This document shows positions 34,072 to 36,001 of a DNA stretch of 64,000 nucleotides, one piece after another; within the stretch, counting starts at the first letter, position 1; each line of letters starts with the position of its first letter. The notes under the pieces were generated by a model that ran no database searches, was not told the DNA's origin, and worked only from the letters and a program-made list of their open reading frames with translations. The position numbers were made by a program, and so were the translations under genes. Source of the DNA: an uncultured candidatus Porisulfidus sp. (lineage in GTDB: Bacteria; Pseudomonadota; Gammaproteobacteria; Poriferisulfidales; Poriferisulfidaceae); contig OZ241993.1 in assembly GCA_965204575.1 (NCBI GenBank), forward strand, positions 800,001 through 864,000, given 5' to 3'.

Positions 34072-34214
34072 CTACTCGACCGGCGTGACCGGCTCCTCTA
34101 CGGCGGGATACTTCAAGGTGAGTTCGCCGCCCAGGTCTATGGCGTGCGGGTTCTTTTCGCCCTTCTCCGTCAGGTCGATGGCCACGTGATCGTCGTACTT
34201 GCCCTTGGGGAATT
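34072..34214 (-). pseudogene. 3' fragment of the secreted-protein gene split by the TnpB element
   Basis: Manual translation FPKGKYDDHVAIDLTEKGEKNPHAIDLGGELTLKYPAVEEPVTPVE* with host-like codon usage; joins in frame with the 35518+ fragment. Confidence 0.8.
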
Positions 34215-35472
34215 ATGTATGAAAATTGGCAGAGGATTCCTCGCCAATCTTCACCATTTTTTGACGCTTCCCAGGCCGACTGTGGCGGGATGCCCCGCCG
34301 GTGTCGCCACCTCCACGTCCAGCCGCCCCATTCCCGAAGGCCAGGATGTTCAATGCGGCGTTCACGTCCGCATTGCCCGCGTGCCCGCAAGCGGTGCACT
34401 TGAAATCTGTTCCATTTCTGTTTTTCTCATCGACATGCCCGCATGAATGACACGTCTGGCTGGTGTACGCCGGAAGCACATGGCGCACTTCCATCTTGTA
34501 GTTCAGGCACAACTCCAGCGTGCCCCAGGCGCTGGCCAGGATCTTCCGGTTCAGAGCCGCTTTCGCTTTTACGTTCCTGCCGGGCTTCTCTTTGGTGCCC
34601 TTGGCCGATTTCGTCATGTTGCCGATGTTCAGCTTCTCGACATAGGCCACATCGTATTCTGACGCAATGCTCTTGCTGACGTGGTGCGCCCAGTTCAACC
34701 GGGCGAAGCGTTCCGCGCGGAACGCTTTCTGCAACTTCACCCTGGTGATCTTCCTGCGGTTGCTCCCTTTCACCTGTCGCGCCATCTTGCGCTGGTACCG
34801 CTTGCGCCTTGCCACCTTCCGCTCCAAGTCCGGGCCCGGGTGCTTCGTGCCGTCCGACAAGACCGCCCACCCGTCCGCGTTCACGTTGCGGTCGATGCCC
34901 ACTTCCCGGATGCTGTGCGGAAGACTCGCTTCCGCCTGGACTTCATAGGCCAGGTAGGCATACCACTTGCCACATTCGTATCTGATCCGGCCGGACTTGA
35001 ACTCGCCGTCCGGGTACGGATTGTTGCCCGCCATCTTCATCCAGCCGACCTTCTGAACGTACAGGCTCTCTCCTGCTACTCGTGCGGATTGATAGTCAAT
35101 CGGAAAACTCGGAATCGTGCTGTACTTGCCGTGAAACTGCGGCAGTTTCCGGTTCAGTTTCCCGCCGGTCTCCCGATCCTTGAAGAACGCCTTGTAGGCT
35201 GTCTCGATGGGCTTCAGGGAGATCCGGACCACCTTGGACGGATAGTCCTGCAGCCACTTTGTCGTCCCGTCATCTCGCCGCATCACGGTGAAGACGTGAC
35301 ACAGGGAATAGTGTCGAAAGTCCGGCTTGATTCCGAATTCGTACTCGCCCCTGAGCTTCCCGACCATGTGGTTCCACACGAAGCGGCAGGCCCCGGCGGT
35401 GCCGTGCAGTTGCTGGTTCTTTCGTGCAGAGCCCGGATGCAGGCGGTAGCGGACGGTGCGGGGGACTTTCAT
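34213..35472 (-). CDS. tnpB: RNA-guided endonuclease TnpB
   Basis: N-terminal YRL.P...G.CRFVWN; RuvC-I GIDRN, RuvC-II VEKL, zinc finger CHSC/CTAC, RuvC-III ADVNAA.NI, all apparently intact. Confidence 0.95.
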   Translation of the reverse strand: MKVPRTVRYRLHPGSARKNQQLHGTAGACRFVWNHMVGKLRGEYEFGIKPDFRHYSLCHVFTVMRRDDGTTKWLQDYPSKVVRISLKPIETAYKAFFKDRETGGKLNRKLPQFHGKYSTIPSFPIDYQSARVAGESLYVQKVGWMKMAGNNPYPDGEFKSGRIRYECGKWYAYLAYEVQAEASLPHSIREVGIDRNVNADGWAVLSDGTKHPGPDLERKVARRKRYQRKMARQVKGSNRRKITRVKLQKAFRAERFARLNWAHHVSKSIASEYDVAYVEKLNIGNMTKSAKGTKEKPGRNVKAKAALNRKILASAWGTLELCLNYKMEVRHVLPAYTSQTCHSCGHVDEKNRNGTDFKCTACGHAGNADVNAALNILAFGNGAAGRGGGDTGGASRHSRPGKRQKMVKIGEESSANFHT

Positions 35473-35517
35473 AGGAAGATTGTCTTCAAGCCTCCCTGTT
35501 TGTCAACTCTCGTACAT
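34215..35517 (-). mobile_element. Non-autonomous TnpB-only insertion element with terminal inverted repeats and AATT flanks
   Basis: AATT at 34211-34214 and 35518-35521; ends read inward ATGTATGAAAATTGGC and ATGTACGAGAGTTGAC; no transposase inside. Confidence 0.82.
35479..35506 (-). promoter_or_regulatory. Putative sigma70 promoter for tnpB inside the element end
   Basis: TTGACA-16 nt-GACAAT, 6 nt before the ATG. Confidence 0.45.
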
Positions 35518-36001
35518 AATTCTTGGTGCTTGTATCCTCCCCAGCTTTCCTCCGGGATGTAGCTGGCGTAGTCGTTCTCAATCGTAGCCAGATTAACTTC
35601 GTCGAACAGGTCGGCACCATCCGGCAGCCCCTGGGCATCCTTCTTGCGGTACTCCCGAATCGTCCCGTTGTCCTGCACCTGCCACAGGCCATGCTTGCCT
35701 TCCCCGATCATCGTCATGGTCTGTTCCACCACGTTCACGAAGCGGTAGGTGTAGTTCGTGTTCATGTGTCCAGAGAAAACCGGCAGATGGGGAATGCTGG
35801 AATGCGTCGTCTTGGGACGGCCTTCGCCGACCAGCAACTTCTGCCCGTCATCTCCCCGATCGCCTGGTCGCTCGTGTAGTAATAGGGATCGCCCTTCGTC
35901 AGGTCCTTGATGTGGCCGGCCTCGTCGGCACCCAGCGGGGCGGACGCGATCAGCAACCACGCGCCCGCGAGGCCGAGTGTGGTTGCGTTGGTTGGTTTCA
36001 T
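35518..36001 (-). pseudogene. 5' part of a secreted hypothetical protein gene, frameshifted and interrupted
   Basis: Signal peptide MKPTNATTLGLAGAWLLIASAPLGA; coding frame switches at a G-run near 35853-35857; ends at the element junction. Confidence 0.75.

What the first reader, a model, noticed from the sequence alone, without database searches (positions are those of the whole stretch)
34211..35521. TnpB-only element with terminal inverted repeats and an AATT target duplication, not IS200/IS605-like ends
Seen: the 1303-bp segment 34215-35517 is flanked on both sides by AATT. Its ends read inward ATGTATGAAAATTGGC and ATGTACGAGAGTTGAC (12 of 16 identical). Removing it plus one AATT gives AAG CAC CAA GAA TTC CCC AAG (KHQEFPK), fusing the two host fragments in frame. 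It encodes only a TnpB with intact RuvC D-E-D and zinc finger, and no transposase. Known: IS200/IS605 elements lack TIRs and make no target duplication; IS607 elements also make none. Inference: TnpB carried by a different mobilisation system acting in trans (a DDE transposase, or a recombinase using an AATT core). Caveat: an IS605-style reading (insertion after TTAT, no duplication, empty site QELFPK) is also in frame, though it needs a rare TTA codon and leaves the inverted repeats unexplained.
Basis: partly seen in the sequence, partly recalled or inferred. Interest (0 to 1): 0.85.

Follow-up and report, generated by a model that had tools for sequence, protein, structure and literature searches.

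The report
TnpB gene riding IS1595-type transposon ends
This is a small mobile element that carries only the RNA-guided nuclease TnpB but has the inverted-repeat ends and 8-base target duplications of the IS1595 family of cut-and-paste transposons, so it depends on a transposase made elsewhere, and the host DNA next to such elements shows a one-sided sequence bias that may be the nuclease's recognition motif.

Summary
The literal observation holds. AATT lies on both sides of 34215-35517, the ends match 12 of 16, and the only gene is an intact TnpB. The reading "AATT target duplication" is wrong.

AATT is part of the terminal inverted repeat (consensus GGGAATTATGTA...TTGACA). The element is 34208-35524 (1317 bp). 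Contigs of relatives skip exactly that span and carry 67 other bases there. Sister copies compared with empty sites in same-genus genomes show 8-bp target duplications of varying sequence.

Elements encoding an IS1595-family DDE transposase in the same genus have the same repeat subtypes and 8-bp duplications. The genome has no Y1 or serine transposase, and its one IS1595 transposase gene is frameshifted.

This architecture recurs in TnpB relatives from several phyla. Of 75 loci, 57 have the repeat and 37 also have the duplication.

One new observation: the base just 5' of the left duplication, in TnpB orientation, is a purine at 57 of 58 sites. The mirrored position is a purine at 22 of 58, and autonomous IS1595 elements at 3 of 8. 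This may be a TAM.

The general kind, TnpB in DDE transposons with inverted repeats, was published in 2023. I did not find the IS1595 partner named in searchable text.

The parts
34208..35524 (-). Whole non-autonomous element, 1317 bp, carrying TnpB only
   Evidence: Contigs of X1, X2 and X6 join 34207 to 35525, skipping 1317 bases. Loose ends at 34207/34208 are the flanks of sister copies B and D. The alignment of 7 copies ends at GGG/CCC.
35499..35524 (-). Left-end terminal inverted repeat, with a damaged tip. It reads AAGAATTATGTACGAGAGTTGACAAA, where sister copies have GGGAATTATGTA...
   Evidence: Elements that encode an IS1595 transposase carry the same repeat type.
35479..35506 (-). Promoter-like site inside the left repeat: TTGACA, 16 nt, GACAAT. 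It ends 6 nt before the TnpB ATG.
   Evidence: 10 of 12 matches, 1 site found against 0.3 expected. This is a consensus match only; function is inferred.
34216..35472 (-). TnpB ORF, 419 aa, stop codon at 34213-34215. RuvC D-E-D and the CxxC...CxxC zinc finger are intact.
   Evidence: Closest solved structure is ISDra2 TnpB, E 7e-25. dN/dS between copies is 0.09-0.20.
34208..34335 (-). Predicted omega-RNA scaffold. It overlaps the TnpB 3' tail and the right repeat. Its last hairpin uses the repeat as its 3' arm.
   Evidence: Fold z-score -4.2. The alifold of 27 sequences has 7 of 21 pairs with compensatory changes. The right end folds better than the mirrored left end in 50 of 59 elements. No RNA ends were observed.
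34208..34233 (-). Right-end terminal inverted repeat. Its reverse complement reads GGGAATTATGTATGAAAATTGGCAGA.
34192..34207 (-). Host DNA just 3' of the right end. This is the predicted guide-encoding stretch, CAAGGGCAAGTACGAC.
   Evidence: Inferred from the position of guides in characterised TnpB elements (recalled) and from the scaffold reaching the element's last base.
35525..35960 (-). 5' fragment of the broken host gene. In relatives it is a 535-aa protein of no known family.
34072..34207 (-). 3' remnants of the same host gene, with a further internal loss of about 767 nt near 34172-34175.

Best explanation
The element at 34208-35524 is a non-autonomous member of the IS1595 family of DDE transposons whose only cargo is a TnpB gene with its guide-RNA region.

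How it moves:
- An IS1595-family transposase made by another element binds the roughly 26-bp terminal inverted repeats (GGGAATTAT..TTGACA).
- It inserts the element with an 8-bp staggered cut, which gives 8-bp target duplications.

State of this copy and this genome:
- The only IS1595 transposase gene in this genome is frameshifted, so the 16 TnpB elements here are probably stranded.
- The window copy is also damaged. Its left tip reads AAG instead of GGG, it has no duplication, and 67 bp of host gene next to the left end are lost.

What TnpB probably does (inferred):
- TnpB is transcribed from a promoter that lies in the left repeat.
- Its omega-RNA is made from the 3' end of the gene and runs through the right repeat into host DNA.
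- The guide is therefore the 8-bp duplication plus the following flank.
- That guide matches the unoccupied allele in full. At the left junction of the occupied allele it matches only the first 8 bases.
- TnpB could therefore cut empty alleles and favour retention or spread of the element, provided a suitable motif (TAM) lies just 5' of the duplicated 8 bp.
For: Shown:

(1) Empty versus filled sites.
- Copy C is empty in 5 of 5 relatives searched. Copy B is empty in 3 of 5, and one relative holds the element.
- The filled sites read TA(G/A)CCGAA|GGGAATT...AATTCCC|TAACCGAA and CTG(G/A)AATG|...|CTGAAATG.
- Copies D, E and F have duplications TGGATATA, AGAA(T/C)AAA and ATGTCTTC.

(2) Other TnpB families and the genus.
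- Both other TnpB families in the genome also sit between inverted repeats with 8-bp duplications.
- Many of the 30 same-genus loci do too.

(3) The transposase partner.
- Elements encoding a protein that matches PF12762, PF12760 and NF033547 carry the same repeat subtypes and perfect 8-bp duplications.
- Examples are L047, L038, L032, L184 and L187.
- PF12762 is found in 14 of 16 genomes of the genus and in 5 of 5 other genomes rich in these TnpBs.

(4) Other transposases. PF01797 and PF00239 each give 0 matches in this single-contig genome, which is 98.75% complete.

(5) Breadth. Of 75 full loci from species genomes, 57 have a GGGAATTAT-type repeat matching at 18 or more of 26, and 37 also have a duplication matching at 7 or more of 8. 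Of 80 metagenome loci, 13 pass both thresholds.

(6) TnpB is under selection. dN/dS is 0.09-0.20 in 10 pairs of 5 copies, and the catalytic and zinc residues are invariant.

(7) RNA structure.

(8) One-sided flank bias.
- At 58 unique sites the base at -1 is G 38, A 19, T 1, C 0.
- The mirrored position is a purine at 22 of 58 (Fisher 2.4e-13).
- Autonomous IS1595 elements have a purine there at 3 of 8 (Fisher 3.6e-5).

From a paper: the IS1595 family is usually flanked by 8-bp duplications and has the Zn_Tnp_IS1595 and DDE_Tnp_IS1595 domains (PMC8101967, introduction passage).
Against: - No transposition was observed, and no element holds both TnpB and the transposase. An IS1595 transposase lies within 2.5 kb at only 2 of 109 loci, and never inside the same repeat pair. 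The partnership rests on shared ends alone.
- The window copy itself shows neither an intact left tip nor a duplication.
- 18 of the 75 species-genome loci and 52 of the 80 metagenome loci did not show the repeat (13 of the 52 had flanks too short to tell).
- No partner transposase was found for the third TnpB family's different repeat.
- The omega-RNA is predicted only. The long-range pair GGGAAU/AUUCCC never covaries.
- The RNA-library contigs cannot show RNA ends and may be DNA carry-over.
- The flank bias is weak as a motif. Only position -1 is near-invariant.
- The control set of autonomous elements has only 8 members.
Confidence: 0.85

Rival explanations
1. It is an IS200/IS605-type (IS1341-like) TnpB-only element. 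A Y1 TnpA moves it as single-stranded DNA and inserts it 3' of a fixed tetranucleotide such as TTAT, without duplication.
For: The TnpB protein matches the IS200/IS605 TnpB models, though below the family's own cut-off (NF038281, 153 bits against 425). Its closest solved structure is ISDra2 TnpB. A hairpin lies near the right end.
Against: - Terminal inverted repeats of about 26 bp and 8-bp duplications of variable sequence are seen at many independent sites.
- Left flanks share no fixed tetranucleotide.
- No Y1 transposase is found in the genome.
- Only about 50 nt lie between the left tip and the ATG.
Confidence: 0.03
2. A site-specific recombinase (IS607-like serine recombinase, or a tyrosine recombinase) recombines an AATT core shared by a circular form of the element and a GGGAATTCCC-like target.
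For: The joined ends would form a palindrome around AATT, and GGG/CCC flank AATT on both sides.
Against: - GGG/CCC belong to the element, not to the target. Empty sites in relatives contain no GGGAATTCCC and no AATT.
- The sequences outside GGG/CCC are duplicated 8-mers that differ from site to site.
- No serine recombinase is found in the genome.
- The joined-end palindrome occurs 0 times in the genome.
Confidence: 0.02
3. The mobilisation reading is right, but the purine bias 5' of the left duplication is not a TnpB recognition motif. It reflects an asymmetric target preference of the transposase on these particular ends, or some selection on insertion context that depends on orientation.
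For: - The motif is weak. Beyond position -1 the best frequencies are G 25, A 30 and T 26 of 58 at -4, -3 and -2.
- It varies between TnpB clades.
- Left and right repeats are not identical.
- Only 8 autonomous elements serve as control.
Against: - The bias is phase-locked to the edge of the duplication and tied to TnpB orientation. The left side has a purine at 57 of 58 sites and the mirror at 22 of 58.
- It sits exactly where a TAM must lie if the guide starts at the right end.
- The 8 autonomous elements show no such bias in either orientation: 3 of 8, and 2 of 8 on the mirrored side read by eye from the rows.
- From established knowledge (recalled): DDE transposases usually have symmetric target preferences.
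Confidence: 0.45

Closest known systems
IS1595 family insertion sequences (ISNwi1-like group; related to eukaryotic Merlin)
   Same: - 8-bp target duplications.
- Inverted repeats that begin with GG(G).
- The repeat subtypes are identical or nearly so to those of same-genus elements that encode a Zn-ribbon + DDE_Tnp_IS1595 transposase.
- PMC8101967 (passage) gives 8-bp duplications and these two domains as family traits.
- That the ISNwi1 group's ends read 'ggnnatTAT', and that some members carry passenger genes, is recalled from ISfinder and from Siguier et al. 2009. I did not check it in a paper.
   Different: The element encodes no transposase at all. The cargo is TnpB, and the right repeat doubles as the 3' arm of a predicted RNA hairpin. 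I found no text naming TnpB as IS1595 cargo: the search 'TnpB' + 'IS1595' listed 9 papers and none concerned this.
DDE-transposase-associated TnpB branches (DDE-1 to DDE-6) of Altae-Tran et al. 2023, PNAS (PMC10691335; section 9 read in full, other passages by find)
   Same: TnpB sits between inverted terminal repeats. The TnpB 3' end lies close to a transposon end. The paper also reports solo TnpBs with ends like those of transposase-bearing elements, taken to be mobilised in trans.
   Different: - Those branches were defined by a DDE gene next to TnpB. Here none is co-encoded within the repeat pair in any of 109 loci.
- The main text names only IS630, and 'IS1595' occurs 0 times in it.
- A 2026 review lists ISL2, IS630 and IS1031 (PMC13565253, passage).
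IS200/IS605 TnpB elements such as ISDra2, and the IS1341 TnpB-only group
   Same: The TnpB protein has the same domain order and catalytic residues, and aligns end to end with ISDra2 TnpB (8bf8/8exa, E 7e-25). A structured RNA region overlaps the 3' end of the gene and reaches the right end.
   Different: The ends, the duplications and the partner enzyme all differ. A TAM could not come from a TnpA target motif, because the flank is arbitrary host DNA.
Fanzor1 genes inside eukaryotic DDE transposons (from the review PMC13565253, passage)
   Same: An RNA-guided TnpB-type nuclease rides as cargo in cut-and-paste transposons that have inverted repeats and make target duplications.
   Different: This case is bacterial, with a compact TnpB of about 400 aa, and the element is non-autonomous.

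Membership tests
IS200/IS605 (including IS1341-type TnpB-only elements) | No terminal inverted repeats | tested here: not met
   Repeats of about 26 bp are present: 57 of 75 loci match at 18 or more of 26, as do the sister copies.
IS200/IS605 (including IS1341-type TnpB-only elements) | No target duplication; insertion 3' of a fixed tetra- or pentanucleotide | tested here: not met
   8-bp duplications of variable sequence are seen against empty sites. The left flank holds no fixed tetranucleotide.
IS200/IS605 (including IS1341-type TnpB-only elements) | A Y1 (HUH) TnpA is available as partner | tested here: not met
   PF01797 gives 0 matches in the genome, which is 98.75% complete and a single contig.
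IS607 | Serine recombinase TnpA; no inverted repeats; no duplications | tested here: not met
   PF00239 gives 0 matches. Repeats and duplications are present.
IS1595 family (as a non-autonomous derivative) | 8-bp target duplication | tested here: met
   Not met at the window copy itself, where 67 bp of target are missing.
IS1595 family (as a non-autonomous derivative) | Ends like those of elements that encode a DDE_Tnp_IS1595 transposase | tested here: met
   The same repeat subtypes occur in L032, L034, L035, L036, L038, L047, L184, L187 and L190. Their proteins match PF12762, PF12760 and NF033547.
IS1595 family (as a non-autonomous derivative) | Encodes its own IS1595 transposase | tested here: not met
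   TnpB is the only ORF. In 0 of 109 loci does a transposase lie inside the repeat pair. I therefore file it as non-autonomous, not as an IS.
IS1595 family (as a non-autonomous derivative) | Actually moved by an IS1595 transposase | not testable with these tools
   Needs a transposition assay.
TnpB (RNA-guided nuclease) | HTH + OrfB_IS605 (RuvC) + zinc-ribbon domains, with the D-E-D triad | tested here: met
TnpB (RNA-guided nuclease) | Omega-RNA encoded at the 3' end, with its guide read from the flank | tested here: inconclusive
   A conserved and partly covarying structure reaches the last base of the element. No RNA 5' or 3' ends were seen, because one search used contigs only. No Rfam family matched.
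DDE-associated TnpB branches (Altae-Tran 2023) | Inverted terminal repeats around TnpB | tested here: met
DDE-associated TnpB branches (Altae-Tran 2023) | A DDE transposase gene adjacent to TnpB in the same element | tested here: not met
   Whether this TnpB clade belongs to one of their six branches could not be checked, because the supplements were closed.

The most novel reading that the evidence does not exclude
A whole clade of bacterial TnpBs has become the sole cargo of IS1595-type (Merlin-related) DDE transposon ends. It lives as a non-autonomous rider that is never co-encoded with its transposase. Its guide is the 8-bp target duplication plus the flank, and its recognition motif lies in arbitrary host DNA just 5' of the duplication.

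On this reading the near-invariant purine there (consensus about G-A-T-R) is a survivorship footprint. Copies persist where TnpB can cut the empty allele. That would be the first sequence-level evidence that RNA-guided homing also serves cut-and-paste DDE transposons, and it would give a TAM read directly from genomes.
Probability: 0.4. Interest if true: 0.78.

Novelty: new variant of a known kind. Interest (0 to 1): 0.62.

Why it matters
TnpB is the ancestor of Cas12 and is used as a compact genome editor. Its known biology is tied to IS605 and IS607 elements, whose scarless excision makes RNA-guided homing make sense. What TnpB does for a DDE transposon is an open question, and the 2026 review says so (PMC13565253).

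This locus and its relatives offer three things:
- A clean natural system: dozens of independent insertions, matching autonomous partners in the same genomes, and empty alleles in sister species.
- A clade-wide architecture in which the transposase-binding repeat is also part of the predicted guide-RNA scaffold.
- A one-sided flank bias that turns "does TnpB home into empty DDE-transposon sites?" into a testable prediction. The test would use TAM ending in a purine and target equal to the duplication plus the flank.

It also shows that surveys based on gene neighbourhood will miss TnpB-transposase partnerships that exist only in trans.

Tried and rejected
- **Empty site of the window copy.** I looked for a clean one in relatives. 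None exists, because 67 bp of host gene are replaced. The origin of the odd left tip AAG and the order of the deletions could not be worked out.
- **Palindromic target or AATT-core recombination.** Considered after and rejected by the empty sites and by 0 copies of the joined-end palindrome.
- **Rfam.** Nothing relevant for the region. The only match was isrG at 13.9 bits against a gathering score of 100.
- **RNA evidence.** The two RNA-library runs (X1, X2) hold only small shares and are kept as contigs. They cover parts of TnpB-like copies and the intact host gene of relatives, but cannot show RNA ends, strand or level, and may hold DNA. I draw no expression claim from them.
- **TnpB and transposase in one element.** Not found in 109 loci.
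- **Partner for the third TnpB family's repeat (GGGGCTTCGAGG...).** Not found in any loaded locus.
- **More autonomous IS1595 controls.** Of about 68 loci examined, only 7 passed the general finder. With L032 that makes 8, because many have other repeat types or cargo.
- **Host gene.** No Pfam or NCBIfam match.
- **Literature.** Searches 'TnpB'+'IS1595', 'TnpB'+TIR+TSD+'DDE', 'ISNwi1'+'IS1595', 'ISSod11/IS1016/ISPna2' and 'TnpB'+'Merlin'+'Fanzor' found no description of TnpB inside IS1595-type ends. The supplements of PMC10691335 could hold one and were closed.
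Full report
**What is at the coordinates.** AATT lies at 34211-34214 and 35518-35521, and the two ends read inward match at 12 of 16. The only long ORF is a 419-aa TnpB on the minus strand (34216-35472). 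It matches Pfam HTH_OrfB_IS605, OrfB_IS605 and Cas12f1-like_TNB and NCBIfam guided_TnpB at 200.9 bits. It aligns end to end with ISDra2 TnpB in the PDB (E 7e-25). In an alignment with four other TnpBs of this genome, D194, E279, D369 and the four zinc-finger cysteines are invariant.

**The boundaries are three bases further out.** The window lies in a single-contig genome of 1.82 Mb with 60% G+C. That genome holds 7 copies of this element family (65-100% protein identity), 9 more distant TnpB genes (31-39%) and some fragments. Aligning the 7 copies with flanks shows that similarity continues through GGG on the left and CCC on the right: GGGAATTATGTA...TACATAATTCCC. Contigs from three public runs (X1, X2, X6), laid on the window, join 34207 to 35525. 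They skip 1317 bases and hold 67 other letters there. Loose ends at 34207/34208 are the flanks of sister copies. The element is therefore 34208-35524, and AATT is positions 4-7 of its terminal inverted repeat.

**The real target duplication is 8 bp.** I searched the flanks of sister copies in the five closest same-genus genomes and compared the sequences.
- Copy C is absent from all 5. The empty site reads ...GTATAACCGAAATCG... and the filled site reads ...TAGCCGAA|GGGAATT...AATTCCC|TAACCGAAATCG...
- Copy B is absent from 3 of 5, one relative carries it, and one matches only part of the flank. Its duplication is CTG(G/A)AATG.
- Copies D, E and F carry TGGATATA, AGAA(T/C)AAA and ATGTCTTC on both sides.
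- The second TnpB family has a GGGAATTGTATAC-type repeat and the third has a different repeat, GGGGCTTCGAGGTTTTGTGTGGAA. Both also show 8-bp duplications.
- Many of the 30 loci fetched from the genus do the same.

Inverted repeats plus variable 8-bp duplications exclude IS200/IS605 and IS607 mechanics. The genome has no Y1 transposase and no serine recombinase domain (genome 98.75% complete).

**The window copy is a damaged one.** The broken host gene is intact in all 9 relatives that have it (10 of 41 genomes searched have it, counting this one).
- The relatives read ...AAGCACC, then 67 nt, then CAAGGGCAAG.... The element therefore replaced 67 bp.
- There is no duplication, and the left tip reads AAG where sister copies have GGG.
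- About 767 nt more of the gene are missing further 3'.
- The gene encodes a 535-aa protein with no Pfam or NCBIfam match.
- I could not reconstruct how the deletion and the odd tip arose.

**The partner.**
- I recalled that IS1595-family elements make 8-bp duplications and that one of their groups ends in GG..AT-TAT. A paper confirms the 8-bp duplications and the two transposase domains (PMC8101967, introduction passage).
- PF12762 matches the genome once, at 1082022-1082425. The gene is split into 203-aa and 103-aa ORFs by a frameshift and is preceded by GTGAATTATAAAGAAAGGTTGA.
- PF12762 matches 14 of 16 genomes in the genus, mostly as open frames of 300-377 aa.
- Those elements carry the same repeat subtypes as the TnpB elements, with perfect 8-bp duplications:
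  - L047: GGGAATTATGTAGGTAACTTGACA, duplication AACTCAAA.
  - L038: ...TAGCGATTGTTTGACA, duplication ATTTCGGA.
  - L032: ...GTAGCAAAATCTGCAAG, duplication AAATGGCC, with a methylase passenger.
- The L032 protein matches PF12762, PF12760 and NF033547.
- The transposase is present in 5 of 5 other genomes rich in these TnpBs.
- It lies within 2.5 kb of TnpB at only 2 of 109 loci, and never inside the same repeat pair.

The TnpB elements are thus non-autonomous riders on IS1595-type ends. In this genome, whose only copy of the transposase is broken, they are probably stranded. Several copies are decaying: B has a stop codon, B and C each match TnpB in two pieces, and A and D have damaged left ends.

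**Breadth.**
- A scan of one genome per species returned 79 loci, of which 75 had full flanks. Of these, 57 have a GGGAATTAT-type repeat matching at 18 or more of 26, and 37 also have a duplication matching at 7 or more of 8.
- By record titles they come from Ca. Porisulfidus (the window's genus), Ca. Oxydemutator, Arenicellales, Ca. Poriferihabitans, Rhodothermales and Caldilineaceae.
- Of 80 metagenome loci, 28 had a motif pair and 13 passed both thresholds. The 39 loci with adequate flanks and no motif pair are mostly the most distant relatives, at 31-36% identity.
- The architecture therefore belongs to a clade of TnpBs, not to TnpB in general.

**TnpB and its RNA.**
- dN/dS between 5 copies in this genome is 0.09-0.20 in all 10 pairs, so the protein has been under selection.
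- The left repeat holds a promoter-like TTGACA-16-GACAAT that ends 6 nt before the ATG (consensus match only).
- The last 178 nt fold with a z-score of -4.2. The final AUUCCC pairs with an upstream GGGAAU, and a long terminal hairpin has the right repeat as its 3' arm.
- In an alifold of 27 sequences, 7 of 21 pairs show compensatory changes, most of them at the base of that hairpin and in an inner stem. The long-range pair never varies, so it is untested.
- The right end folds better than the mirrored left end in 50 of 59 elements (Wilcoxon 9e-10).
- I infer that the omega-RNA scaffold runs to the last base of the element, so the guide is the 8-bp duplication plus the following flank.
- No RNA ends were seen, and Rfam has no matching family.

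**A one-sided flank bias.** If the guide is the duplication plus the flank, the empty allele matches it in full while the filled left junction matches only 8 bases. A TAM would then have to lie in host DNA just 5' of the duplication.
- At 58 unique insertion sites (46, 13, one orthologous pair merged), position -1 in TnpB orientation is G 38, A 19, T 1, C 0.
- Position -2 has 3 C. Position -3 is A in 30, and position -4 is G in 25.
- The first duplicated base is never G.
- The mirrored position on the right is a purine at 22 of 58 (Fisher 2.4e-13). Against the local background the binomial p is 9e-16.
- The commonest triplets are ATG (8), AGG (6) and ATA (6). They differ by TnpB clade: ATG or -TG in the Poriferihabitans-type clade, and -TA or -RA in the window's clade.
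- Eight autonomous IS1595 elements with clean duplications have C, C, G, A, T, T, T, G at that position, which is 3 of 8 purines (Fisher against the TnpB elements 3.6e-5).
- The inferred original site of the window copy in relatives reads ...AAATA|CAAGGGCA..., which also fits.
- I read this as a candidate TAM left by survivorship, at about even odds. The alternative is an asymmetric target preference, and the control set is small.

**Comparison with what is known.**
- Altae-Tran et al. 2023 (PMC10691335; section 9 read in full, other passages by find) describe six TnpB branches associated with DDE transposases, all with inverted terminal repeats. They also describe solo TnpBs whose ends match transposase-bearing elements, which implies mobilisation in trans.
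- Their main text names only IS630 and never mentions IS1595.
- A 2026 review lists ISL2, IS630 and IS1031, and calls the role of TnpB in DDE transposons unresolved (PMC13565253, passages).
- The general kind is therefore known. The IS1595 partner, the strictly in-trans relationship, the repeat doubling as an RNA arm and the flank bias are not in the text I could search. The closed supplements may bear on the first of these.

**Verdict.**
- The element is a TnpB-only, non-autonomous IS1595-type element (confidence 0.85).
- The window copy is a damaged, immobile member.
- I rate it a new variant of a known kind, interest 0.62.

Noticed in passing
G000:C1:16578-17142 (outside the window): A 565-bp element with the same IS1595-type inverted repeats and an 8-bp duplication, AAAATCGC. 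It has neither TnpB nor a transposase, only two small ORFs (89 and 68 aa) on the minus strand. The same ends therefore carry other cargo.
   Followed up: partly
L032:45-2722 (G005), and G000:C1:1081541-1083500: IS1595 elements with a DNA methyltransferase passenger. In L032 it is a 399-aa methylase with a C-terminal HNH-like tail, read by eye and not scanned. The frameshifted transposase in the window's genome is also followed by a methylase-like ORF.
   Followed up: no
G000:C1, six copies (e.g. 1468320-1469549; L083): A third TnpB family (31-33% identity to the window's) sits between different inverted repeats (GGGGCTTCGAGGTTTTGTGTGGAA) with 8-bp duplications. No transposase with these ends was found in any loaded locus.
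   Followed up: partly
window 34072-34207 and 35525-35960: The broken host gene is a 535-aa protein with no Pfam or NCBIfam match. It is conserved in 9 relatives and present in RNA-library contigs of relatives. Here it has lost 67 bp at the element and about 767 nt further 3'.
   Followed up: partly
G000:C1:395874 and 1172314 (outside the window): Single IS1595-type termini (GGGAATTATGT...) with no detectable partner end or TnpB. They are probably remnants.
   Followed up: no
L086-L164 (record titles): Nearly all close relatives of this TnpB come from metagenome-assembled genomes of different phyla, several named as sponge symbionts. This suggests exchange within that habitat. It was not tested with a tree against host phylogeny.
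   Followed up: no
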